A DNA stretch of 63,657 nt, counting the filler, from Rozella allomycis CSF55 (lineage: Eukaryota), in the NCBI GenBank assembly GCA_000442015.1. It is 5 parts of 5 records of this genome, joined end to end, with 100 filler letters (N's around TTAATTAATTAA, not from the genome) between each part and the next. Parts side by side here need not be neighbours in the genome. Positions count along the whole stretch, not along the records: positions 18,758 to 30,995 come from KE561321.1; 4 more parts are not named here. One strand, written 5' to 3'. The notes below the pieces were generated by a model that was given only the letters and a program-made list of their open reading frames with translations, was not told the DNA's origin and did not search any database. Positions 1 through 56,000 of the stretch are shown here, one piece after another; position 1 is the stretch's first letter; each line of letters starts with the position of its first letter. The position numbers were made by a program, and so were the translations under genes.

Positions 1-3000
1 AGAAAGTCTATTTTAGAGGAAGATTTGAAAGCCACTTCATTGATAAAGAAGAATTCTAATAAAATATTGCCACCAACGCCTGCACCAAGAAGATTTTCAA
101 TTGCATCTTTAGGCGTGAGACCAAAGCAAGATGAATTGATTATTGAGAGTGTTAAAGAGCCAAATTTAAGCAAAGATCAAGATGAAATGGAAAACAACGA
201 TTCAAACGCTCTATTAAACGCAATAAGTGTGGCAAAACAAGGAAACAATGCAAAGGCAATTGAAATGTTGAATAAAATAATTTTAATGAATCCAATCAAT
301 GTTGAAGCTCTTTGGTATCGCCATTTAATCTATTTAGAAGAAAATGATTTAGAAAATGCATTAAAAGATTTAGAAAGTATTTTAAATGAAAATAAATCTT
401 ATATCCCTGCGTATCAGTCAAAAGCTAAAATAAATGAAGAAATGGGACACATCAAGCAAGCCATTTCATGTTTTACAAACATTATCAAGATAAAACCAGA
501 TTCAGAAGCTCATTATCAAAGAGGCTTATTATTTGAAAAAGATAATGTAAAAATAATTGAATTTATTTAAAGGATACATTTTTAGCTGCAGAAGATTTCA
601 AAATTGCGTGTGCGTTGGACTTTAACAACATCAATGCAGCCTTCAAATATGGATTAAATTCATTCGAAAGAGAAATGTGGGATGAATCTATTTTATATTT
701 CAATAAAGTTTTGGATGTTAATCCATCGAATGCAAAAGTTTTGTCTTTTAGAGCAAAGGCATTTTCGTCCAGAAGAAATTACGAAAATTCATTCAAGGTA
801 AATACACTTTCGTCTATTGAAAATAGGATATATGTAGTGCTATTCAATTAGATCCAATGAATAAAGATTATTATTACTTTAGAGCTTGTCTAATCAGAAA
901 GATTAACCCAATTCAATCGATTCAAGATTTAAGCATTTCTTTACTATTAGATTCATCAAATACAAATATATCAGCGTACTTTAAACGAGCTCTCGTTTAT
1001 TCTGAATTAAATCAACATGAACTTGCTATTAAAGACTTTCTAAAAGTTTTGTCATTTGAAGAGGGCGATTTCAATTCTCATATTAACATTGCTTTAATTA
1101 ACTTGAAATATCTTTTTGATTATGAAAATGCTTTAAGTTTTATTAATGATGCTTCACTGATTGACATTTTAAATCATAAACCATTAATATACAGAGCTAT
1201 ACTCTTTCATGGAATATATTCAAATAAATTTGCTCTGAATAAACTAAATTTGAAACTTAATTTGGATCAATGTATAAATCTAGCTATTAGAGACTATTCT
1301 CTTGCCTTGAAATTGAACCCAAATTTACATGCAGTTTACATTTGCAGGGGTCATTTACTTTACAAATTAAAGTAAATTATTATTCTCAAAGTTAAAAGAC
1401 GATATAAAGATGCCACGAATGATGTATCTGCGGCATTGAAAATTAAACCAGATCTCGTCAGCAATCAACTTGAAGTATTCTTTTTAATTTATGCATGAAA
1501 GAGTTTAACTGTGAAATTATTCAAAAAAGAGTATCAACAAGCTTTAGAAGACTTTAAATCTCAGATGAGAATTCAATTGAAGCCAACAGCTACAGACTTT
1601 TTATCGGCTGTTAAAATACACTTCAAAATGAAATCATATCATGGTAAGACATTATAAAAATAATCAAAAGGTAAATTCATCAACAAATAATTCAAAGACG
1701 CAATAAAATATTCAAATGATGCTCTAGAATTAGTTCCACTAAATATTGTTGCTTTAAACTATCGAGGTCTATCATTATTCAATCTCAGATTGTTCAAAGA
1801 AGCCTTAAATGATTTCTCTTTCATTATAGAGTTAGATAAATCAAATAAATATGCTTATTATCAAAGAGCTAGATGCAAATTTAGATTAGATAATGACAAG
1901 GGTTTACTTGACATTCAAAAAGCTCTAAAATTGGATCCTGATTTTGTTGATTGCTATTTAGAAAGAGCGTCATATCTTCAAAGTAATAGGAATTTAATGC
2001 AACTAAATAGATAGTAAATATATAGTTTTTCAAATTGAAAGAAAATGAAGAATTAAATCAAGCAATAACTGATTGTTCTGATGCTCTTGTAATAAATCCA
2101 AAATGCCTGAGAGCTTATTTATTAAGAGCCCAAATAAGGTATAAACTTGATCAAAAACTGCAAGCTATTTCTGATTACACAAAGGCAATATCAATCGATC
2201 ACGTAATGAATAAATTAATAAGTTATTTCACAGAACTCTGTAATTGCTTACTACAATAGAGGCGTCGTATATCAATCAATGCACAATTATTCGCTTGGGA
2301 TAAAAGATTACAGCATTTGTCTCTTGATTTTACCTGCTAAGCATTCTCTAGTCGCTGTAATTTTATTGTTATTATGCAATCAATAGAGTGTCTACAGAAA
2401 CAGGGCACTGCTATATTGGCGTCAAGGGTACCATGAATTTGCATTGTCAGATCTTTACTATGCAAGAGAAAGGTTTCCGAAAGAAGCTAAGCTGCACGCT
2501 CTATTGGGAATGTGTCTAGAAAAATTAAAAAGATACAAAGAAGCCCTCAATTCTTATTCAACTGCCATCAAATACAACCCTTTTCTCGTTGAAATTTATC
2601 TATGCATGGGTAATGTGCAAACCGCCATGGATAATATTCAAGCTGCAAAGTACCTATTTTCAATAAATTTTATACCAAAGGAGTTTGTATCAAAATGCTA
2701 TTAGAATAAAGGTCGACTATTATCCCGCTTATTTGAATCTGGCTTATACGTTACAAATGCAAGGAAAGTTTAAAAGGGTATCATTAAATAAATCGTTATA
2801 CTAGGCGTGGTCGGTTTTTACTTCGGCTATAAAAATCAATCCATTTTGTGCAGAGGCTTATGAAGGTAAACCAGTAAATTCTTCACCACAAAGGCAGATC
2901 CATTGTTTATTTATTCATGAAAAATTCTTTTGCGGCCCTAAATGATATTACAAAAGCTTTGGTAAATACACATTCATACCTTAACAGCAATTGGAGCCGA

Positions 3001-3639
3001 AGAGTGCAGAAATTCTCACAAACAGAGGCGTTATACTACAGATTACAGGAAGCAATTCTGAGGCCATGAAAGATTTCAAAGTAAAGTTTTGACTTAAATT
3101 TACTCTGATGTCTGTCGAGATTAATCCAAAATATCATCTAGCTTACTTTAACATGGCAAATCTGTATTTTTCACAGCTTCAATATGAAGTAGCTTTAGAA
3201 AATTACAACAAGGTATCTAATTATTAACAAGATTATTTCAAGTGCCTAGAAATTGTGCCAAAGGATGAAGAATCTCTTTTAAATAGAGCAATTACATTTG
3301 CTGCGCTGAAAAGTAATTTAAAGAGTGTAATTTCCTAGATTATCAGGATTCACTATCCGATTTTAATGCTGTTTTAGCGCTGAATCCGAACAATCCTCAT
3401 GTCTTTTTCAATAGGGCTCAAGTTTACCAAAAACTTGGTATTATTCATAAAAAGTTCCATATAGGAATGTTCTACTTTGCTGAATTGGATTATAAAAGGG
3501 TATTGGAATACATGCCTCAAGATCAAATGACAATGATGAGATTGGGCGATACGTAAACTGTTATAAATTCAATTATAGAATCGGTAAACAATCGAGGATT
3601 ACAGAAGCTATGGAGTGGTATGCTTCAATGGATGAATAA
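1..3639 (+). CDS. Multi-TPR protein (TTC6-like), 5'-partial, about 20 introns
   Basis: Successive TPR motifs (e.g. AYYQRARCKF, AYLLRAQIRY, ILTNRGVIL) join in frame after removing 26-31 nt introns (547-572, 798-826 etc.); stop TAA at 3637-3639. Confidence 0.85.
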
Positions 3640-9368: not shown

Positions 9369-9717
9369 TTGAATCATCAATAAACTTCTCTGTTATCTCT
9401 GTTAANCTTTAATTTTTTAAATTAATTGGGGCAGATTATCTTGTGTTGCCCCACAATTTTTAGATAATTTACCTTACAATGCTGATTGACATCCCAATTT
9501 TTGTTTCGAGTTTTACAGCAAAAGAATAATAGTTTTTTAATTTTTCAAATTAATTGGGGCAGATTAGCTTTCTAGGCTCTCTAAAAAAGTAAATGTGCCT
9601 TTTGAATAAAAGTCCCAAAAAGAACCTTATAACCAGAAGCTTTTTAGATATGAAAAAGCTTTATCACAGNTCTCTGTTAAAAAAAAGTTTGGGTCTGATT
9701 TCCAATTTTCAGAAATT

Positions 9718-11829
9718 ATGACCATGCAAAACTTACTTAAAGGCAATAGATCCGCTGTTATTTTTGGGATATTTCTATTAATTGCAGTAATTATCATAAG
9801 ATTATAATAAAAGGGTATAATATCGCTTGCTACAATACTAATTACAAGTCAATTCAGAAGATTAGATGGGTGTCCAAAAACAATCCCCATAAATAACAAT
9901 ATGAATTATATAAATCCTGAAAGGATACCAAAATCTGCTTCAGCGCAGCTCTTTTATGATCGCTTACATAGAACGGAATTCATGATACATCATTTGAACT
10001 TTTCTTACCACGAAAAAACATTTGATTTGCTAAATGAATTTTCCTCCTCACTTAAAAACTTTCATGTGAGACTATCTAATAAGTTTTCTCAGTCATATGG
10101 AGATATTGGAAATTACATTCTGCAAAATTATACGAAACAAGACTTTATACCCAACCTAAACAATCAAGCTCGAGAAATCGCCAAAGTCTTTATTGATGAA
10201 TGTCAACATACCGTCCTGACAGTAAACGAATTTCTGCAAGATGAAACCCTTTCAAACAATGAATCATCAAAAAATAAAACGAATTCTATGGTAGATAATG
10301 TCATTAAGAATGTAGCAGTGGCGGCAAATGATCTGGAAAAGTCTTTAAATGATCAGTCATTTAAGAAGAAACAGAATGAAAAAGGAACGACGTTGGAAAC
10401 AGTTATTAAAATCAAAGAAGAGGAAGAAATAAAGAAACAAGGAAGTCAAGGAAATCTAGCATCTACTATTCTAATTGACAATGCCAATAACCAATATGTT
10501 TTAGCAAAGCCAAGCGATATTACAATTCTCTACGCTGATCCGAGATTTTTACAAGAGTTAGTGGCTGTGAGTATTACTTCATTCGTATTATCATGGTTGA
10601 TTGAAAGAATCCACTTGCCCGGATTTCTTGGTTACATTTGTGCAGGTATCCTACTCGGACCGGCTGGACTTAACTACATCAAGGTATACACTCGACAAAA
10701 GTATTTATTGTAGAATCTTATTCAATTTGGAACTATTTCTCAGCTGGGCGTTTTGTTTATGATCTTTTTTCTCGGTTTAGAATTTGAGTTGGACCGATTG
10801 AAGCAAATATGGCATGTCTCAGTGTTAGGAGGGATCGCATTTATGTTATGTATTATTTTTTCTACTTTATTGTTTGTTTTTCAGATAAATAACAATTTTA
10901 TGGAGGGACTTGTAACCGGGTTTTGTGTCGCTTTGAGTTCTACAGCAGTAGCATTGAAATGCATGGGACCTTCTTCCGAAAATGATTCAGAGAGTTTCGT
11001 TAGTGGAATGGTAGGAATTCTAATTGTTCAAGATGTATTTCTTTGTCTTTTCCTCGCTGTATTCCCTTCTTTGACCGAATCGTCAATGTCTTCTTTGACT
11101 ATAAGTATTTCAGTCAAACTTCTCCTTTTAGTACTATTTTGTGCTGCCTCGATTTATTCCATTAAATTTCTACCAACAGTTCTAAATCTACTAAAGAAAA
11201 TCCAATCAAAGAGAAATTCTAGGTCCTTGAATGTTGTTCTAATTGCTCCAAAGCATCCATCAGAAATAGAAAATTCTTTAATTGGGAGTATCTCATTTTG
11301 TTTCATATTGGCATTTATATCTGAACATATTGGATTGTCAATGGAATTCGGTTCATTCATGGCTGGATTTGCTTTGAACTCTCAATCAAAGAATATTCCT
11401 TCTTCTATTCATAGAATTATAATTCCTGCTATCGAAGCAATATCAACTTTCTATTCTGTCCCGTTTTTCGCCTCGATTGGCCTCCACGTGTATCCACCTT
11501 TTCTTTTTCATCAATGGGATGTATTATTTACCTTGACAATTATAATTTTACTATTAAAATTCAGTGTTCTTTTTATTATTCTGAGAATAGGCTTTAAACA
11601 ATATTCTGTTTCTGATGCCTTTTTCATGTCTCTAGGTTTGTCTCAAATTAGTGAGTTCGCTTTCGTTCTAGCTTCAAGAGGCAAAACTTTGGGCCTAATA
11701 TCACGTGAAGTTTACTATTTACTTGTTGGAATCACGTCATTAACTCTTATAATCGTTTCTATCATCTGGAATTTAGTCCGGTTTTTTAACCCAAGAAGGG
11801 ATGTTCAATATCGAAGCGTTATAGATTAA
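9718..11829 (+). CDS. TMCO3: TMCO3-like CPA2 cation/H+ antiporter, copy 1
   Basis: LIDNANNQYVLAKPSD, GYICAGILLGPAGLN, LSSTAV, LSQISEFAFVLASRG; two introns; ATG at 9718. Confidence 0.85.
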
Positions 11830-11940
11830 AACATTAGCCTCTAAATCTAAAATAAAACATTAAAGTGCTTTGGAACATTTCTTTTTACAAATTTCTGATT
11901 CGATCTTTTACCGATTTTTTACCCCAAGCGCTTTAATCAT

Positions 11941-12762
11941 ATGTTTTTTGATTGCCATTGTCACCTAGTTAATCGATATTTCTCAAAAGAAGCCATAGAA
12001 ACAATCTTAAAGAGATGTGTTAATGATATCCATCTCGTTTGTGTGGCGGAAAACGAGGATGACTTTGATGAGCTTCTACAGCTAAAAGCTCAAAACTGTA
12101 ATATTTCTATTTGTCTCGGCTTACATCCTATACAAGCAGAAATAAACAATGATCTGCAAATACATCGATCAATTTGCGAAAAGGACTGGGAGAAAATACA
12201 ATTTAGATTCGCTGATTGTTTGCACATGTCTAGGTGCGACGGAATCGGTGAAATAGGGTTAGACTTTTCTCCACATATATTCCAAGCCAACAAGAATGTA
12301 TCTATTGAGAAGCAAAAAGAAGATCAGCTACTAGTTTTTAAGAAGCAACTCGAACTTGCAAAGAAGTTTGATCTTTTTGTAAATGTTCATTCACGACAGG
12401 CAGGACATTATGCTATTGAGGTTCTTGAAGAGTACGAAATTCGTAGGTGTATACTTCACGCATTTGATGGGAAATTTAAGTATGCATTAAGAGCGTGCGC
12501 AAATGGATGGTTTTTGTCGATACCGGGAAATGTAAAGAGGAGTGATAAGTTTCAAAAGATGGCCAGAGAATTGCCATTAGAGAATATACTCATCGAGAGT
12601 GATGCTCCAGCTCTATCTGCTTTCCCAGGGGAAAGATCGTCACCTTTAGATGTTATAGATACATTGAATTTCGTTGCAGAATTAAGAAAAATCGACAAGA
12701 ATACATTAATGCGTCAAATTGAAGCAAATTTTGCTCGATTGACATCAAAGTCTTATTCATAA
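11941..12762 (+). CDS. TatD-family nuclease (TATDN3-like), copy 1
   Basis: DCHCH, GLHP, IGEIGLDF, VNVHSR, LHAFDG, ESDAP; intronless. Confidence 0.92.
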   Translation: MFFDCHCHLVNRYFSKEAIETILKRCVNDIHLVCVAENEDDFDELLQLKAQNCNISICLGLHPIQAEINNDLQIHRSICEKDWEKIQFRFADCLHMSRCDGIGEIGLDFSPHIFQANKNVSIEKQKEDQLLVFKKQLELAKKFDLFVNVHSRQAGHYAIEVLEEYEIRRCILHAFDGKFKYALRACANGWFLSIPGNVKRSDKFQKMARELPLENILIESDAPALSAFPGERSSPLDVIDTLNFVAELRKIDKNTLMRQIEANFARLTSKSYS

Positions 12763-12889
12763 TATTAGACGGTATATGAATTAGGAAAATAGTTAATAAA
12801 TATCTTTTTATATTTAATTCACTATTCATACAAATTTTCTTGTGTGCTTATCTGAGTTTGTAAAATGAAATTTCGAATTTAGAAAAGGC

Positions 12890-13127
12890 ATGTCACTGAA
12901 AGTATTTACGCATTAAATTGGTAATTAGGCGGAATTGGTTCAGTGGAATGAGGCAGTAATTAGCATGGATAGAGGTAACCTTCAAGAGGCCATAGATCTG
13001 TTCATTGAAATCGCTGATTGTGCAAAATTTAACTATAATTTGGGGAGATTATTTTTTCAACAACATGAATATGAAAAGGCTATAGGTAATATATTACAAT
13101 AAGAATAATAGCAATGTTCAACAAGTG
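12890..13127 (+). CDS. noxR: NADPH oxidase regulator NoxR/p67phox N-terminal TPR region, truncated by gap
   Basis: Spliced (intron 12902-12928): MSLKAELVQWNEAVISMDRGNLQEAIDLFIEIADCAKFNYNLGRLFFQQHEYEKAI, matching the p67phox/NoxR N-terminus. Confidence 0.75.
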
Positions 13128-15116: not shown

Positions 15117-15470
15117 CAGTAATTAATAATAAGTCTGTTCATTCATTCAATGATATTAAATAATCGCAAAATGTTCACGCACGTGAACAAAATCTAAAAA
15201 TAGATTTTTGTTCTATATTGAGTTATTTTCAATTTTTAACTAAATTATCAAGATTCAATAACACAAGTATGTTAGAATCTTGTGTTGCCCCACAATTTTT
15301 AGATAATTTACCTTACAATGCTGATTGATATCCCAAATTTTTGTGTCGAGCATTACAGCAGTTGATAATATTTTTTTGAAATTTTGGGGCAAATTATGGC
15401 GCTCTCTAGGCTCTCTGAAAATGTGCCTTTTGAATAGAAGTTTGGGTCTGATTTCCAATTTTCAGAAATT

Positions 15471-17582
15471 ATGACCATGCAAAACTTACTTAAAGGCAAT
15501 AGATCAGCTGTTATTTTTGTGATATTTCTATTAATTGCAGTAATTATCATAAGATTATAATAAAAGGGTATAATATCCCTTGCTACAATACTAATTACAA
15601 ATCAATTCAGAAAATTAGATGGATGTCCAAAAACAATCCCCATAAATAACAATATGAATTATATAAATCCTGAAAGGATACCAAAATCTGCTTCAGCGCA
15701 GCTCTTTTATGATCGCTTACATAGAACGGAATTCATGATACATCATTTGAACTTTTCTTACCACGAAAAAACATTTGATTTGCTAAATGAATTTTCCTCC
15801 TCACTTAAAAACTTTCATGTGAGACTATCTAATAAGTTTTCTCAGTCATATGGAGATATTGGAAATTACATTCTGCAAAATTATACGAAAGAAGACTTTA
15901 TACCCAACCTAGACAATCAAGCTCGAGAAATTGCCAATGTTTTTATTGATGAATGTCAACATACCGTCCTGACAGTAAACGAATTTCTGCAAGATGAAAC
16001 CCTTTCAAACAATGAATCATCAAAAAATAAAACGAATTCTATGGTAGATAATGTCATTAAGAATGTAGCAGTGGCGGCAAATGATCTGGAAAAGTCTTTA
16101 AATGATCAGTCATTTAAGAAGAAACAGAATGAAAAAGGAACGACGTTGGAAACAGTTATTAAAATCAAAGAAGAGGAAGAAATAAAGAAACAAGGAAGTC
16201 AAGGAAATCTAGCATCTACTATTCTAATTGACAATGCCAATAACCAATATGTTTTAGCAAAGCCAAGCGATATTACAATTCTCTACGCTGATCCGAGATT
16301 TTTACAAGAGTTAGTGGCTGTGAGTATTACTTCATTCGTATTATCATGGTTGATTGAAAGAATCCACTTGCCCGGATTTCTTGGTTACATTTGTGCAGGT
16401 ATTCTACTCGGACCAGCTGGACTTAACTATATCAAGGTATAAAATAGAAAAAAGTATTTATTGTAGAATCTTATTCAATTTGGAACTATTTCTCAGCTGG
16501 GCGTTTTGTTTATGATCTTTTTTCTCGGTTTAGAATTTGAGTTGGACCGATTGAAGCAAATATGGCATGTCTCAGTGTTAGGAGGGATCGCATTTATGTT
16601 ATGTATTATTTTTTCTACTTTATTGTTTGTTTTTCAGATAAATAACAATTTTATGGAGGGACTTGTAACCGGTTTTTGTGTCGCTTTAAGTTCTACAGCA
16701 GTGGCACTTAAATGCATGGGGCCTTCTTCCGAAAATGATTCAGATAGTTTCGTTAGTGGAATGGTGGGAATTCTAATTGTTCAAGATGTATTTCTTTGTC
16801 TTTTCCTCGCTGTATTCCCTTCTTTGACCGAATCGTCAATGTCTTCTTTGACTATAAGTATTTCAGTCAAACTTCTCCTTTTAGTACTATTTTGTGCTGC
16901 CTCGATTTATTCCATTAAATTTCTACCAACAGTTCTAAATCTACTAAAGAAAATCCAATCAAAGAGAAATTCTAGGTCCTTGAATGTTGTTCTAATTGCT
17001 CCAAAGCATCCATCAGAAATAGAAAATTCTTTAATTGGGAGTATCTCATTTTGTTTCATATTGGCATTTATATCTGAACATATTGGATTGTCAATGGAAT
17101 TCGGTTCATTCATGGCTGGATTTGCTTTGAACTCTCAATCAAAGAATATTCCTTCTTCTATTCATAGAATTATAATTCCTGCTATCGAAGCAATATCAAC
17201 TTTTTTTTCTGTCCCGTTTTTCGCCTCGATTGGCCTTCATGTGTATCCACCTTTTCTTTTTCATCAATGGGATGTATTATTTACCTTGACAATTATAATT
17301 TTACTATTAAAATTCAGTGTTCTTTTTATTATTCTGAGAATAGGCTTTAAACAATATTCTGTTTCTGATGCCTTTTTCATGTCTCTAGGTTTGTCTCAAA
17401 TTAGTGAGTTCGCTTTCGTTTTAGCTTCAAGAGGCAAAACTTTGGGCCTAATATCACGTGAAGTTTACTATTTACTTGTTGGAATCACGTCATTAACTCT
17501 TATAATCGTTTCTATCATCTGGAATTTAGTTAGGTTTTTTAACCCAAGAAGGGATGTTCAATATCGAAGCGTTATAGATTAA
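15471..17582 (+). CDS. TMCO3: TMCO3-like antiporter, copy 2
   Basis: Near-identical to copy 1. Confidence 0.85.
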
Positions 17583-17693
17583 AACATTAGCCTCTAAATC
17601 TAAAATAAAACATTAAAGTGGTTAGGAGCATTTCTTTTTACAAATTTCTGATTCGATCTACTACCGATTTTTTACCCCAAGCGCTTTTATCAC

Positions 17694-18515
17694 ATGTTTT
17701 TTGATTGCCATTGTCACTTAGTTAATCGATATTTCTCAAAAGAAGCCATAGATACAATCTTAAAGAGATGCGCTAATGATATCCATCTCGTTTGTGTGGC
17801 AGAAAACGAGGATGACTTTGATGAGCTTCTACAGCTAAAAGCTCAAAACTGTAATATTTCTATTTGTCTCGGCTTACATCCTATACAAGCAGAAATAAAC
17901 AATGATCTGCAAATACATCGATCAATTTGCGAAAAGGACTGGGAGAAAATACAATTTAAATTCGCTGATTGTTTGCACACGTCTAGGTGCGACGGAATCG
18001 GTGAAATAGGGTTAGATTTTTCTCCGCATATATTCCAAGCCAACAAGAATGTATCTATTGAGAAGCAAAAAGAAGATCAGCTACTAGTTTTTAAGAAGCA
18101 ACTCGAACTTGCAAAGAAGTTTGATCTTTTTGTAAATGTTCATTCACGACAGGCAGGACATTATGCTATTGAGGTTCTTGAAGAGTACGAAATTCGTAGG
18201 TGTATACTTCACGCATTTGATGGGAAATTTAAGTATGCATTAAGAGCGTGCGCAAATGGATGGTTTTTGTCGATACCGGGAAATGTAAAGAGGAGTGATA
18301 AGTTTCAAAAGATGGCCAGAGAATTGCCATTAGAGAATATACTCATCGAGAGTGATGCTCCAGCTCTATCTGCTTTCCCAGGGGAAAGATCGTCACCTTT
18401 AGATGTTATAGATACATTGAATTTCGTTGCGGAATTAAGAAAAATCGACAAGAATACATTAATGCGACAAATTGAAGCAAATTTTGCTCGATTGACATCA
18501 AAGTCTTATTCATAA
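17694..18515 (+). CDS. TatD-family nuclease, copy 2
   Basis: Near-identical to copy 1 (four amino-acid differences). Confidence 0.92.
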   Translation: MFFDCHCHLVNRYFSKEAIDTILKRCANDIHLVCVAENEDDFDELLQLKAQNCNISICLGLHPIQAEINNDLQIHRSICEKDWEKIQFKFADCLHTSRCDGIGEIGLDFSPHIFQANKNVSIEKQKEDQLLVFKKQLELAKKFDLFVNVHSRQAGHYAIEVLEEYEIRRCILHAFDGKFKYALRACANGWFLSIPGNVKRSDKFQKMARELPLENILIESDAPALSAFPGERSSPLDVIDTLNFVAELRKIDKNTLMRQIEANFARLTSKSYS

Positions 18516-18657
18516 TATTAGACGGTATATGAATTAGGAAAATAGTTAATAAATATCTTTTTATATTTAATTCACTATTCATACAAATTTTCTTGTGTGC
18601 TTATCTGAGTTTGTAAAATGAAATTTCGAATTTAGAAAAGGCATGTCACTGAAAGTA

Positions 18658-18757
18658 NNNNNNNNNNNNNNNNNNNNNNNNNNNNNNNNNNNNNNNNNNN
18701 NTTAATTAATTAANNNNNNNNNNNNNNNNNNNNNNNNNNNNNNNNNNNNNNNNNNNN
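18658..18757. other. 100-bp scaffold gap with artificial TTAATTAATTAA linker (also 30996-31095, 49575-49674, 51447-51546)
   Basis: Identical 12-mer with stops in all six frames, centred in four N runs. Confidence 0.95.
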
Positions 18758-20872: not shown

Positions 20873-23210
20873 TTATTTTGTTGATCTGTATAATCTAAAA
20901 AGGACAAAGCCCGCGGTACCCACTAAGGCTGCCGTTAAAATAGAAATTGTTGTTATTTTAGCAATGTTAACAGACGCTAGTCGAGAATTTACATTAATTT
21001 GTGAAGAAATGATTCTAAAACATCTAAATTTGAGGTTTACGGTTCCATTGCGTTTGCGGCAAGTAAATTATACAAATCGTTCATGAAATTATCTTTCACT
21101 GAAACAGACAAGGGGAAGGGTAGTGAATATTTGCGACAAAAGTCGTCTGGTTGAACTGGAAATCTTTGGTGGACAAGATCGCATTCGCTTTTTGTAGCAA
21201 CTACTACCAGGGGGTAATTGATCAAGTTAAATTGTTCCTTTAAAAAAATCACGTGTTTAGTACTGTAATTTGTGCGATATATGAAAATGAATTCACATCA
21301 GCAGAGTCGTAAAGTAGACATATCAAGTCACATGCATTCATTTTCGATGGATTTGATAAATACTCATGATCACAACATGGTGGAATCTCAGTCATTATCA
21401 AATATTTTTCACTTCCTTTGAATTCCGCTGTATTCACAACAGAATATGATTGAGTGGAGGGAGTGTAATTATCTTCCATCGCTTTGCCAATGAATCGTCT
21501 CAGGAGGCTTGTTCTGGAAATCAAAAATTCTAAAATTTTACTTTCCGGATCCTGTGGCGCCAAAAACATAGCAGTGGAGAGTNTAAATATTTTTCACTTC
21601 CTTTGAATTCTGCTGTATTCACAACAGAGTATGATTGGGTCGAGGGAGTGTAATTATCTTCCATCGCTTTGCCAATGAACCGTCTCAGGAGGCTTGTTCT
21701 GGAAATCAGAAATTATAAATTTTACTTTCCGGATCCTGTGGCGCCAAAAACATAGCAGTGGAGAGTGTTCCTGGTAACCCGGCCTTTCTTTTTATCAATT
21801 TGGCGACTTCTTTTGACTTTTACAGCCTGTGTTGTATCCTATATTTAAGCTTTCGTTTCTAATACCCCTTCATAGCCGAGGTATGCCAAGTATTTCAAAG
21901 TAAGACGATAATCTAATAAAGTAGTCATGCTAAATTGACATGTCTTATTTTAATGTACCTCCATTGAGCCAAGAATCCTTGGAGCGTCAGAAATCCTTGA
22001 TCGTTCGTAACCGTGGACCCTTGCCCCTGCTCGTCCCAGGGTAGCGTTGGACATATTGAAAACATTTTATTTAATTCTTCATTATTCAAAGCGCCATCTT
22101 TGTCCTTTTTAAAATTATTATTCTAAATACTTTATCAAATACATAAAAAAGTTCAGTGAAAAATTGGTATCCCTTCGGGCTCAATTCTACGCAGCATTCA
22201 TCATCAACATCAAGTGGAGGATGAAGAAAATCATGGCGTAAAATTAAATCATCGCCATAGCCAAATTTACGAAGAACAGTCCACGTGGTTTCCAACCTAC
22301 CGCGCTGAATGAAGAGGCGGTGAAGATAAAGAAAACCATCAAGTGTTAGACTATCATTTAAGACACCTTCATTGCCACTAGATCTTACAACTTCCTTTAT
22401 TCCCTCCAATTCTTGTTGTTGAAGTGGTGCCAAAAAACACTTTCTTTGGAAAAGGTTTAATTCTTCGTCATTTAACAAACCATCCTTGTCCAGATCACAA
22501 ATTTGAAAAATCCTTTTTAGTGCATCTTCGCAAGCTGCCTTTAATACATGCTCTCTGGAATCATAGAGTGGCGCGGTCGGGTGAAGGACTGCTTTTTGAG
22601 CAAAATAAAATGCTTCGCTCACATTTAATAAAGTTTTTGCTGAGCATTCAACGCATGTTTCCACTTCCTAATATTATATTTCAGTAAGTATTGGTTTTAC
22701 TTTGTAGTCCGACATTATTGGTATCATTTCTTCTTCTAACATTTCATTTGTGACATCTTCACCTCTAATGTCAATTTTATTTCCAATCAACACAATTGGG
22801 ACATTCACTCCCAAAGATCTTATACGTGGTAGCCAGTAAGTTGACACTCGCTTTTTGGTTTCATCATCGTCCACTGCGTAAACAATACATATAACATGAC
22901 ATTTTTTGATTTCATTTTCTATATCCTCCCTATCTTCAGGTCTTGCTAAGAAAACGATAAGCCCATCACATTTACTAGATGTATCTACAATTTGAGTGAA
23001 AACATGGTCTGGTGTCGCCTCAGGTGGAACAGTGACAACCGGCAAAACTGGCTCTACCTTGAATACATTTTTATTTTGCTATTACTTGTGCAACAAACGC
23101 TTCTTTGACCAAGGTCATAATTAAAGTGGATTTGCCTACATTTTCAATATTATATTATTAATATATTTTTTACCATCTCCAAGAACGAGAATTCTAACTT
23201 CTCTTCTCAT
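20873..23210 (-). CDS. GEM1: Mitochondrial Rho GTPase Miro
   Basis: GTPase-EF hand-GTPase-TM layout; CVECSAK, FYFAQKAVLHPTAPLYD, QRGRLETTWTVLRKFGY; eight introns; allelic duplicate around N at 21583. Confidence 0.95.
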
Positions 23211-23657
23211 ATTGAATCACAAAGAAGTTGAGAAATTTCCCTTTACCTTTCGTGCGCATGCTCCTTCCAAATTGAAACAAACTGCGCATGAGTATTTATA
23301 TTTTAAAGTAAAAGGGGGTTTAGAATTTCCAGATTCCAAAAAGTCTATGAAAGGTAAGTGGTAATTGTAATGGGTGAAGTAGTACAATTTCTATAGAAAA
23401 AAAGATGTAAAATCTATCAGTTGTGTTAAATTTTAATACATGTCAATAAAATATATCTTTATTCATTCAATACAGGTTTGTACCGACGCTANATGTTTTA
23501 AAGTAAAAGGGGGTTTAGAATTTCTAGATTCCAAAAAGTCTATGAAAGGTAAGTGGTAACTGTCATGGGTGAAGTAGTACAATTTCTATAGAATAAAAGA
23601 TGTAAAATCTATCAGTAATGTTAAATTTTAATACACGTCAATAAAATATATCTTTAT

Positions 23658-25482
23658 TCATTCAATACAGGTTTGTACCGACGCTAGGACAACTTTATCT
23701 TTGCTGTAAGGATCGAAAAGACGTATTAAACTATCTCCCAAATTGTCGTTCAACGAAATATGCCCAGAAGAGGCAAACAATTTTGTTTTCTCTTGAACAG
23801 ATAATAGGTCAATGCAACATTTGCTATAATTAGATCTATTCTTAATAGTCAATATTTTTACGAGATTGAAATATAGACATCCTTTTGCCTTTTCAGTACA
23901 AAAAATTGGGAAAATATTGGATCACAACCTTCAAATTTTACGCAAATCATGTAAATAGCATTTGAAGGTATATCATCTGACAAAGAAACACATTTTATAT
24001 ACAGGGTAAAAACTTTTTTAGGGTCTGAAATGTCGTATTAACAATTTACTTTTACCCGCCACAATTTCTGGTTGATGTTTGTCAATTTGTTCCATTTGGA
24101 CAAATTGATTAGACTTTATCCTATTAATTTCTTCGTGCAAAATACAGTTTTCTGATTTTAATTCTTCTTTCTCGATTTCTAGCTGAATAAAGATCACACT
24201 GAGGATTACTGATTTAAATTGATTAATAAAGTCACAAAAACTATGATCTGTTCGAAGATTATTTGANAAATTGATTAGACTTTAGCCTATTAATTTCTTC
24301 GTGCAACATATAGTTTTCTGATTTTAATTCTTCTTTCTCGATTTCTATCTGAATAAAGATCACACTGACGATTACTGATTTGAATTGATCAATAAAGTCA
24401 CAAAAACTATGATCCGCTCGAAGATTATTTGATTCTGAAACAAATTTAAGAAAATCTTCTTCGGTGAAATATTTATTCTTCACTTCTTTTTCTACGAATT
24501 GACAAATATTCTTGTATTTTAAGATATCCAAATTTCTGTTATTTTCGTTGGCTATTCGTTTATTGTCACCTTTTATTGTCAAATACAAGGAAAACCTTTT
24601 ATTTTCAATAATTCCGCCTCAAGTGATATTATTTTCTGCTGCTTGTCGGATAGGTTTTTTGTTATTAATTGAAACTTTTTTTCATCCTCCATGACCTGAT
24701 TTTGATACCTTAGCAGTAAATCGTCACACCTTTTTTGTAGAAATTGTTTTTCGTTATTTATGGAATCTAGAAGCTCGGTTACCTAAAAAATCGATAATCT
24801 ACTATTTACGTTTTGATATGGGAACAAATCAGTGTTTTCTTTGGACAGTGTCTTTTTTGCTAGTACAAGCTAATGTAAGTTGTCATTCATGATTACTTCA
24901 GCAAGTTCTGAAGCCGAATTGTTTAATTCGTTGGACAAATGCCGGTTGAGAGTTTGTAGATGAATATTTCTTTCTTCCATAATCCGTATAGATTCTTCAA
25001 GCGAGTAGTTTTTACGTCTTAANGCAAGCTAATGTAATTTGTCATTCATGATTACTTCAGCAAGTTCTGAAGACGAATTGTTTAATTCGTTGGATAATTG
25101 CCGGTTGAGAGTTTGTAGATGAATATTTCTGTCTTCCATAATCCGTATAGATTCTTCAAGTGAGTAGTTTTTACGTCTTAAATCATCAATTTCAATTTGG
25201 TATTTAATCAATTGATTTTCCACTGCACTTTAATGAGTATTTAAGTAAACCAATACATTTGGGTTTCACTGCTTCTTTCTTTTAATTTTTGTTGTGCTTC
25301 ATTTAGCTGTGACCTTAATTGATTGGCGAGGGTTTGTCTGCCTATTAACTCATTGTCTAGGCTTTACAGTTTATATATTTGGACGTTTGTTTGCCTATGT
25401 GAGGAACGGAATATTAATACTCGGAGCATTTATCAAGTTTTGTGGGTGGAATTCTAGACCTCACAGATTGCAGCACAGGCAT
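23658..25482 (-). CDS. Uncharacterised coiled-coil protein with beta-rich (possibly C2-like) C-terminus
   Basis: Spliced frame MPVLQSVRSR...LANQLRSQLNEAQQKLKE...YQIEIDDLRRKN; interrupted by allelic duplicates at N 24267 and 25023. Confidence 0.55.
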
Positions 25483-54733: not shown

Positions 54734-55720
54734 TTAATCTTTCAAAATTTTCCCTTTGTGAGAATGAATCCTTTTTTCCAAAGTTTCGTATGATGCACTA
54801 GCTTCTTTTTCAAGATTACGAATAAATTTATTTGCATCACGGGAACCCGAATCATTGTCTACCTTGACTTGTCTTTCATCTTTCATTTTGTATGAATTTA
54901 TTCTCTCTAATCTAGCCTTTTCATTCCATTCAGCATCTTTTTGCATTTCCTCCAGCTTTTTTCTTTTTTCTTCCTCAGTCATTGATCTTTTTTGGCGACT
55001 ATCGCGATGACGCCCTTCTTCCCTTGAACGACGATATTGAGGAGACCGTGATCGATCCCTCGAATACCTTCCGTTATTAGAATATCTATTATTCCTTGGG
55101 GACCTTGATCTTGATCTTACACGATTCCTATATGGGTCCTTCTCTGGAGCTTCGTCTTTATGGGAATGCCTGTCTTTCTTGCCCTTTTCAGATTTCCCCA
55201 TCTTCACTTTCAATTCTTTAACTTTAGCTGGATTATTCATTAGTTTCTGAATAGCCATCATTTCTCTCTTCTTAATTGCAAATAATGGATCTTCCCGCAT
55301 CTTGGCTTCTAAATCTCTTTCAGTGTTTGCATTGATAGTACCTAATAAGAGTGCACCACCTGCATTTTCAACCTACTAAATACTAAATTAAACAAATACT
55401 TCTTTCAAAAGTGGAGCTGTTTCAATATCTTCATCTACTCTGCGTTTTCCCAATAGATACTCTTCATTAAGCTGTTGAGAATTGACTCCTTGGCCAGAGT
55501 ACATCCATTCGAGTCTATCTGGTCTCCGTTCTATTAACCCGGCTTCTTCTTGCAATCTTTTATACTCTTCCGCTTTTCTTTGTTCCTCCATTTCTTTAGC
55601 AACTTGAAGGGCTTTCTGATATTCTTTTTCAAGTTTTTGCTCTCTTTTCCATACATCCTCCATATTTTTATATGTTCCCGGATGCCAGCTCTTCTTCAAG
55701 TTCAAATCTCCTCCTCCCAT
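54734..55720 (-). CDS. CWC25: Splicing factor Cwc25
   Basis: MGGGDLNLKKSWHP, RLEWMY, MREDPLFAIK; one intron. Confidence 0.95.
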
Positions 55721-56000
55721 TCTCTAGTTGTATTTCTGAAATTTCGCAATGACTTTTAAACGTTATAGGAAAATTATTCCATATCAATAGATGAACAAAT
55801 TTTATTTAAAATTAAATGGTTTATGGAAGGCTCCTCAGAATAATTGACGCATTCCCTTTTGCTAAAGTGAAACTGGTATACCACATTGGTATTTGGTTTC
55901 GATGTTTGTACATCAGTACATGTTTTTCTTTTTACAACAAATCTTCATTACAAGTAACTTAAAAGTTGCCCTCTTATATTTGAATTTTCACAAACTTCAT

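What the first reader, a model, noticed from the sequence alone, without database searches (positions are those of the whole stretch)
23145..23173. Candidate GT-TG intron inside the Miro P-loop
Seen (minus strand): splicing the 29-nt GTAAAAAA...ATATTG gives LGD-ENVGKST, the canonical GxxxxGKS/T loop. The first AG (38-nt intron) gives LGDGKST, three residues short in the most conserved motif. The unspliced frame hits a stop. This is independent support for non-AG acceptors at the usual intron length.
Basis: partly seen in the sequence, partly recalled or inferred. Interest (0 to 1): 0.78.

Follow-up and report, generated by a model that had tools for sequence, protein, structure and literature searches.

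The report
Tiny Miro intron ending in TG
In the mitochondrial GTPase gene Miro of the fungal parasite Rozella allomycis, the first 29-base intron ends in TG instead of the near-universal AG; only a cut at that TG gives an intact nucleotide-binding loop, but no RNA data were on hand to show the cut.

Summary
On the minus strand, Miro/Gem1 (start 23210) has a first intron, 23173-23145, of 29 nt that runs GT...TG. The only AG lies 9 nt further on.

Both public Rozella allomycis gene models use that AG and read LGDGKST, three residues short. Cutting at TG gives LGDENVGKST.

- **DNA:** the TG is not a sequencing error. Long DNA contigs of two further runs span it unchanged, on two different haplotypes.
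- **Homology:** none of 118 homologues has the short loop. A profile of 72 homologues prefers the TG site by 13.8 bits. The same test picks the AG in 8 of 8 informative control introns.
- **Selection:** allelic differences in the first GTPase domain are 7 synonymous to 0 non-synonymous.
- **Second case:** I found a second such intron in this window, 3081-3107 on the plus strand.
- **RNA:** none could be laid, so use of the TG is inferred, not shown.

TG acceptors paired with a nearby AG are known in humans (PMC2374985). This scan has already noted TG-ending mini-introns on other pieces of this genome. My verdict is a probable real GT-TG intron: a new member of a known kind, of moderate interest.

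The parts
20873..23210 (-). Miro/Gem1 (mitochondrial Rho GTPase) gene. It has 11 exons and 10 introns of 29 (TG), 28, 30, 33, 26, 29, 27, 27, 26 and 26 nt. The assembly duplicates part of exons 8-9 around the N at 21583.
   Evidence: 100% and 99% matches to two public proteins named Rozella allomycis CSF55 mitochondrial Rho GTPase, and 67-79% identity to other fungal Gem1/Miro. Exon map.
23174..23210 (-). Exon 1: MRREVRILVLGD plus the first base (G) of the next codon.
   Evidence: Other fungi start MRRDVRILLVGD.
23145..23173 (-). Intron 1, 29 nt, GTAAAA...ATATTG: a GT donor and a TG at the 3' end, with T at -3 and A at +1.
   Evidence: DNA confirmed.
23136..23144 (-). Nine bases, AAAATGTAG. 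They are coding (the rest of Glu, then Asn, Val and the G of Gly) if the TG is used, and intronic if the AG at 23137-23136 is used. Together with the TG this forms a TG-AG tandem 9 nt apart.
23086..23144 (-). Exon 2 as read from the TG: (E)NVGKSTLIMTLVKEAFVAQ. It carries a synonymous allelic difference at 23128 (codon 18).
3081..3107 (+). Second candidate GT-TG intron, 27 nt, ending CTG, in a TPR-repeat gene. An in-frame AG lies 12 nt further on, at 3118-3119.
   Evidence: parser; the 34-residue TPR register is kept only with the TG; the TPR-unit profile puts the TG best and the AG 12.2 bits lower. Not checked at DNA or RNA level.

Best explanation
Intron 1 of the Rozella allomycis Miro gene is an ordinary-sized U2-type mini-intron of 29 nt. 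In this window the intron length mode is 26-28 nt. Its 3' splice site is TG, not AG.

The 5' end is a normal GTAA donor. The last G, the pyrimidine at -3 and the purine at +1 are kept; only the -2 base differs from the rule.

I infer that the second catalytic step takes the TG because it sits at the preferred distance from the donor. These introns have almost no internal signal, so length is probably a large part of how the site is chosen. The AG 9 nt downstream may help early recognition of the 3' end, or may serve as a minor alternative acceptor, as in human TG-AG tandems.

The TG product carries the intact P-loop G-D-E-N-V-G-K-S. The AG product would lack three loop residues.

**Shown:** the sequence, its correctness at DNA level, the fit to homologues, and purifying selection on the domain.

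**Inferred:** that the cell cuts at TG, in what share of transcripts, and the distance mechanism.
For: 1. **Homology.** Of 118 fungal and other Miro homologues, 78 show G-x4-G-K-S/T in the first 60 residues. The other 40 are N-terminally cut or mis-modelled. None of the 118 has the short G-D-G-K-S loop, and one has the very string GDENVGKS.
2. **Profile scores.** With a profile of the N-terminal 190 residues of 72 homologues, the TG form scores 317.4 bits and the AG form 309.0. With the full-length profile, the TG is the best of 9 in-frame acceptor positions and the AG at +9 scores 13.8 bits lower. In introns 2-9 the AG is best in 8 of 8, and intron 10 lies in the unconserved tail and is uninformative.
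3. **Other cut sites.** Of 224 frame-keeping donor/acceptor pairs around the site, the best mRNA is the 29-nt removal. Three placements give that same mRNA, and of these only GT..TG starts with GT. The only canonical pair, GT-AG at 38 nt, ranks 128th.
4. **DNA.** Contigs of X2 and X6 span the intron unchanged although they carry different allelic differences elsewhere, so both haplotypes have the TG.
5. **Selection.** Of 23 exonic allelic differences, 20 are synonymous and 3 are not. In codons 1-170, the first GTPase domain, the count is 7 to 0. The domain has therefore stayed under selection while carrying the TG.
6. **Length.** 29 nt fits the other nine introns of the gene, which are 26-33 nt. 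At 38 nt this would be the longest.
7. **A second case.** A second TG-AG tandem in the window (3081-3107, plus strand) keeps the TPR register only when the TG is used. There the AG scores 12.2 bits lower, and the AG is best in 5 of 5 informative control introns.
8. **Context.** The -3 pyrimidine and +1 purine match what is reported for human TG acceptors (PMC2374985, section 12).
Against: - No RNA junction was seen.
- Both public gene models use the AG. One of them also reads intron 3 as coding, so they look like predictions from the genome, not from transcripts. I do not know how they were made.
- In human genes, TG acceptors are only ever alternatives to a nearby AG, and AG-to-TG mutants shift to other AGs instead of using the TG (PMC2374985, section 12). 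The AG 9 nt away could therefore be the main or only site used.
- Introns of 37-40 nt are predicted elsewhere in the window, so 38 nt cannot be ruled out on length alone.
- One haplotype carries a 264-nt deletion that removes two exons of this gene. That allele at least may be decaying.
Confidence: 0.7

Rival explanations
1. The spliceosome uses only the AG, giving a 38-nt intron. Rozella's Miro would then have a first GTPase domain with a P-loop three residues short, and the nine bases are a relic of an acceptor that mutated from AG to TG.
For: - GT-AG is the rule, and both public models use it.
- Human AG-to-TG mutants move to neighbouring AGs (PMC2374985, section 12).
- Introns of 37-40 nt are predicted in the window.
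- Rozella is a reduced parasite in which some functions decay.
Against: - A loop of that length is seen in 0 of 118 homologues, and the AG form scores 13.8 bits lower.
- Both haplotypes carry the TG, yet the domain shows 7 synonymous and 0 non-synonymous differences. That is not expected for a dead nucleotide-binding domain.
- The other GTPase motifs (NKID, SAK) align without gaps.
- A second gene shows the same pattern.
Confidence: 0.17
2. Assembly or sequencing error: the real genome has AG at 23146-23145.
For: The scaffold is a poor draft, with 977 Ns and allelic tandem duplications around single Ns.
Against: Long contigs of two further runs (X2 record 14, X6 record 15) span the site. They differ from the window at 13-14 other places but not between 23129 and 23299.
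Confidence: 0.02
3. The gene copy is a pseudogene or a dying allele, and its splice sites no longer matter.
For: A 264-nt deletion form lacking exons 6-7 exists as DNA in three runs. The retained form of that segment shows 2 non-synonymous changes among 6 exonic ones.
Against: - The reading frame is open over 623 codons with all ten introns removed.
- Exonic allelic differences are 20 synonymous to 3 non-synonymous.
- Identity to other fungi over exon 5 is 67-79%.
- No second Miro-like protein from Rozella appeared among the listed hits. The two at 99-100% identity are models of this locus.
Confidence: 0.04
4. The 29 nt are removed by some other route, with ends placed one or more bases away (for example TA..GA, giving G-N-V).
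For: Other 29-nt placements score only 1.8 bits lower.
Against: None of those placements has a GT donor or a G at the last base. The GT..TG placement is the top-scoring mRNA and keeps all the rule-bound bases but one.
Confidence: 0.02

Closest known systems
TG-AG tandem alternative 3' splice sites of human U2-type introns (Szafranski et al. 2007, PMC2374985; abstract and section 12 read)
   Same: - A GT donor, with a TG acceptor upstream of an AG within the reported 28-nt limit (here 9 nt, in frame).
- A pyrimidine at -3 and a purine at +1.
[quoted passage not shown]
   Different: - Here the TG product is the only one that gives a normal protein, so it should be the main or functional form and not a minor variant.
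- The intron is 29 nt long, with no visible polypyrimidine tract or strong branch motif.
- There is no RNA proof.
Rare GT-TG introns in RNA-based fungal annotation (Ganoderma lingzhi, PMC11590231; passages read)
   Same: A fungal nuclear intron with a GT donor and a TG end.
   Different: In G. lingzhi there are 22 such introns, 0.024% of all. In this window there are 2 candidates beside 161 parser-predicted core AG introns (a count that still includes some false calls on the antisense strand), which is roughly 1% if both are real. That denominator is crude.
Earlier notes of this scan on the same genome (PEPCK, TERT, another gene)
   Same: Mini-introns of 27-29 nt ending in TG that are needed for the conserved protein, also without RNA.
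   Different: They lie in other genes on other pieces. I could not read those windows, so they are leads only.

Membership tests
U2-type GT-AG spliceosomal intron | GT (or GC) at the 5' end with a donor consensus | tested here: met
   The donor is GTAAAA. GTAA is the commonest donor start among the 161 predicted core introns (97 have A at position 4).
U2-type GT-AG spliceosomal intron | AG at the 3' end | tested here: not met
   The 3' end is TG. The G at -1 is kept and the -2 base is T.
U2-type GT-AG spliceosomal intron | Branch point and length typical of the species | tested here: inconclusive
   The length of 29 nt lies within the 26-33 nt range of the gene's other introns. No clear branch motif emerges from the window's introns, so a branch site cannot be assigned.
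U2-type GT-AG spliceosomal intron | Removal seen in RNA | not testable with these tools
   No listed holder of the stretch is on record as RNA, and the one RNA run that was laid gave no contig.
TG-AG tandem 3' splice site (Szafranski 2007) | TG acceptor with an AG partner within 28 nt | tested here: met
   The AG lies 9 nt downstream and in frame.
TG-AG tandem 3' splice site (Szafranski 2007) | Pyrimidine at -3 and purine at +1 | tested here: met
   The context is ATATTG|A. The second case reads ACTCTG|A.
TG-AG tandem 3' splice site (Szafranski 2007) | Both TG and AG products present in RNA | not testable with these tools
   No RNA cover was obtained.
U12-type (AT-AC or GT-AG) intron | Extended donor consensus of the (A/G)TATCCTT type (recalled, from no call) | tested here: not met
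   The donor reads GTAAAAAATA.
Miro/Gem1 mitochondrial Rho GTPase | Two GTPase domains flanking EF-hand and EF-assoc domains | tested here: met
   The Pfam families on record for the public model include PF00071, PF08477, PF08355, PF08356 and EF-hand families. The alignment to a 72-homologue profile scores 989.7 bits.
Miro/Gem1 mitochondrial Rho GTPase | P-loop G-x4-G-K-S/T in the first GTPase domain | tested here: met
   It is met only with the TG acceptor (GDENVGKS) and not with the AG (GDGKS).

The most novel reading that the evidence does not exclude
Rozella allomycis places the 3' cut of its signal-poor 26-30-nt introns largely by distance from the donor. A TG (more generally NG) at the right distance then beats a true AG 9-12 nt further on. 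Roughly 1% of its introns would be constitutive GT-TG introns that current gene models mis-splice, often inside conserved motifs. That would make it a natural system in which the AG rule of the second splicing step is relaxed genome-wide.
Probability: 0.35. Interest if true: 0.72.

Novelty: new member of a known kind. Interest (0 to 1): 0.5.

Why it matters
- **The public annotation is probably wrong here.** If the TG is used, both public protein models of this gene are wrong in the most conserved motif of the GTPase. The same error is likely elsewhere in this genome, because AG-only gene finders will always take the next AG.
- **It bears on how tiny introns are cut.** Several such cases in one organism with some of the shortest known fungal introns would give a handle on how a spliceosome chooses the 3' site when there is almost no room or signal between branch and acceptor.
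- **If only the AG is used,** Rozella would have a Miro with a crippled first GTPase domain. That would be of some interest for its reduced mitochondrion.

Tried and rejected
- **RNA evidence.** No RNA holder was listed for 21600-23300. The one RNA run with the same species label (X12) gave 0 contigs on 21584-23491 at 85% likeness. This says nothing either way.
- **Whole genome.** None is held for this window, so no genome-wide count and no search for splicing factors were possible.
- **Relatives in metagenomes.** Scanning with the public model gave 139 pattern matches, none confirmed. No comparison with a sister species was therefore possible.
- **Orthologues of the TPR gene.** The search gave 18 hits at 21-56% identity over partial alignments (the two highest cover only 19% and 43% of the query), all generic TPR proteins, and not the public Rozella model. 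I used the TPR repeat register instead.
- **ORF-pair scans for junctions with no AG solution.** These gave 9 groups. The three that lie in genes with a Pfam-assigned strand are antisense to them, and the other six lie where I had no gene to judge them by. None is convincing.
- **Non-AG introns proposed by my crude parser.** Those in the DNA ligase region, in antisense regions and in an assembly duplicate are artefacts.
- **Literature.** Searches for 'Rozella allomycis' + 'intron' (64 papers, 25 listed), 'Rozella' + 'short introns' (2 papers) and 'non-canonical splice sites' + 'fungi' + 'GT-TG' (5 papers) turned up nothing on Rozella splice sites. PMC8476143 (passages) gives only intron density. 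PMC7072748 (passages) mentions neither GT-TG nor Rozella in its main text, and I did not open its supplements.
- One search failed on a frame error and was corrected.

Full report
**What is there**

The window is a draft scaffold of the fungal parasite Rozella allomycis CSF55. Exon 5 of the gene in question matches two public proteins of that name at 100% and 99% identity, and other fungal Gem1/Miro proteins at 67-79%.

The scaffold is a poor draft. It has 977 Ns, and tandem copies of 92-98% identity flank single Ns. I read these as two alleles laid side by side.

The Miro gene lies on the minus strand and starts at 23210. Threading the public proteins on the DNA gives 11 exons and 10 introns. 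Intron 1 is 23173-23145, 29 nt, GTAAAA...ATATTG. It holds no AG. The first AG ends at 23136, which would make a 38-nt intron.

- The unspliced frame stops after LGDGKKYINNIILKM.
- Removal up to the TG gives MRREVRILVLGDENVGKSTLI.
- Removal up to the AG gives MRREVRILVLGDGKSTLI.
- Both public models use the AG.

**Is the TG real DNA?**

I laid the contigs of three DNA runs and one RNA run on 21584-23491.

- Record 14 of X2 (22156-23491) and record 15 of X6 (22118-23491) span the intron.
- They differ from the window at 14 and 13 places, and the two lists do not overlap. I read them as the two haplotypes, with the window a mosaic of both.
- No difference is listed between 23129 and 23299, so both haplotypes carry the TG.
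- X1 has depth in that bin, but no piece of it is listed there and it has none at 23128. I count it as weak support.

A sequencing error is therefore very unlikely.

**Does the protein need the TG?**

- **Loop length in homologues.** Of 118 homologues, 78 show G-x4-G-K-S/T in the first 60 residues. The other 40 start downstream of the loop or are visibly mis-modelled. None has G-D-G-K-S.
- **Intron position.** Several of the truncated models begin just at (D/E)GVGKST, and one reads through an insertion after LLVGD. This suggests that an intron at this very position is old in fungi. That is an inference from protein models only.
- **N-terminal profile.** A profile of the first 190 residues of 72 full-length homologues gives 317.4 bits for the TG form and 309.0 for the AG form.
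- **Full-length profile.** I moved the acceptor of each intron by -12 to +12 in steps of 3. For intron 1 the TG position is best and the AG at +9 loses 13.8 bits. For introns 2 to 9 the annotated AG is best in 8 of 8, with every shift costing at least 4 bits. Intron 10 lies in the unconserved tail and is uninformative.
- **All nearby cut sites.** Among 224 frame-keeping donor/acceptor pairs around intron 1, the best mRNA is the 29-nt removal. Of its three equivalent placements, only GT..TG has a GT donor. The single canonical pair, GT-AG at 38 nt, ranks 128th.

**Is the domain still under selection?**

I classified the 34 allelic differences that I took from the variant table. That table lists 40 and says 3 more are not shown. 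I left out the six at 21629-21715, which lie in the stretch the assembly duplicates. Of the 34, 23 lie in exons: 20 synonymous and 3 not.

In codons 1-170, the first GTPase domain, the count is 7 to 0. This includes a synonymous change in exon 2, at codon 18.

Both haplotypes carry the TG, so the domain has been kept intact while the TG was there. This argues against a dead P-loop.

**Context in the window**

The other nine Miro introns are 26-33 nt long and all end in AG.

I wrote a crude parser based on codon bias and a length prior. Run on both strands, it predicts 218 AG introns, some of them false antisense calls. Of these, 161 start with GTA and are 24-33 nt long, with a sharp mode at 26, 27 and 28 nt (39, 38 and 30 introns). 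The prior favours 24-33 nt as a block but not the peak within it. No clear internal motif or pyrimidine tract emerges.

When the parser was allowed NG ends, it proposed one more credible case. This is 3081-3107 on the plus strand, 27 nt, ending CTG, with an in-frame AG 12 nt further on, in a TPR-repeat gene.

- With the TG, the 34-residue TPR register runs on unbroken, with Pro at position 32 in five successive repeats. With the AG, four residues are lost and the register shifts.
- I built a TPR-unit profile from 113 units of 18 unrelated TPR proteins. It puts the TG first and the AG 12.2 bits lower.
- In the same gene the AG is best in 5 of 5 informative control introns, and 2 introns are uninformative.
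- This second case was not checked at DNA level.

Both TG sites have a pyrimidine at -3 and an A at +1.

**How it likely works**

The intron has a normal donor and keeps the terminal G. My best reading, at 0.7, is a U2-type intron whose second step takes the TG at the preferred length. The downstream AG would be either a helper for early recognition or a minor alternative acceptor.

This mirrors the human TG-AG tandems: the TG always has an AG within 28 nt, a pyrimidine at -3 and a purine at +1 (PMC2374985; abstract and section 12). That paper also warns that AG-to-TG mutants in man do not use the TG. The main rival, at 0.17, is therefore exclusive use of the AG and a Miro with a short loop.

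Error (0.02), pseudogene (0.04) and other cut placements (0.02) are minor.

**Known or new**

GT-TG introns are known but rare. In Ganoderma lingzhi they are 22 of about 92,000 introns (PMC11590231, passages). All minor types together make 0.257% of fungal introns (PMC7072748, passages).

My three searches found nothing in print on Rozella splice sites. The library holds only open-licence papers, and I did not see the 2013 genome paper.

This scan has already noted TG- and CG-ending mini-introns on other pieces of this genome. I could not test those notes.

This finding is thus a new member of a known kind. With two cases beside about 161 predicted core introns in one 64-kb window, TG acceptors may be some fifty times commoner here than in G. 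lingzhi. That denominator is rough, and no RNA supports either case.

**What stays open**

No RNA could be laid, no whole genome was held, and no relative was found in metagenomes. The junction itself therefore remains to be seen.

Noticed in passing
window 21854-22117 (minus-strand Miro gene): DNA contigs of three runs (X1, X2, X6) hold a form that skips these 264 bases. The break points lie inside introns 5 and 7 and leave a hybrid 28-nt GT..AG intron. Exons 6-7 (210 coding bases, 70 codons, around the second EF-hand) are removed in frame. X1 and X2 also hold the full form. X6 holds only the deletion.
   Followed up: partly
window 3081-3107 (+), AG at 3118-3119: A second mini-intron that must end in TG (CTG) to keep the 34-residue register of a TPR-repeat gene.
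   Followed up: yes
window 1644-1697 (+): A 54-base interruption in the TPR gene reads as two complete 27-nt GTA..AAG introns placed head to tail. This is the same kind of stacked mini-intron that earlier notes of this scan describe elsewhere in this genome.
   Followed up: no
window 21400-21766, 23298-23686 and nine other places between 18760 and 30990: Tandem copies of 50-300 nt at 92-100% identity, most of them flanking single Ns. They are probably two alleles laid side by side by the assembler. One of them duplicates part of Miro exons 8-9, and public model P0002 carries the repeated peptide.
   Followed up: partly
window about 9700-13000 and about 15450-18750: Two copies at 94-100% identity of a roughly 3.3-kb block holding a Na/H exchanger gene and a TatD gene, offset by 5753 bases, with a 605-N gap between them. 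This is either a segmental duplication or an assembly artefact.
   Followed up: no
window 22946-22975 (minus): Public model P0002 reads intron 3 (30 nt, in frame, no stop) as coding, giving SSKCDGLIVFLA. Model P0003 splices it out.
   Followed up: partly
window 23213 (run X1): One X1 contig runs on beyond 23213, three bases upstream of the Miro start codon, into 24 or more T on the plus strand. Two others start with sequencing-adapter letters (table 7). The meaning is unknown.
   Followed up: no
window 54737-55723 (minus): A gene for the splicing factor CWC25 (Cir_N and CWC25 domains) lies in the window. It is of note only because the finding concerns splicing.
   Followed up: no
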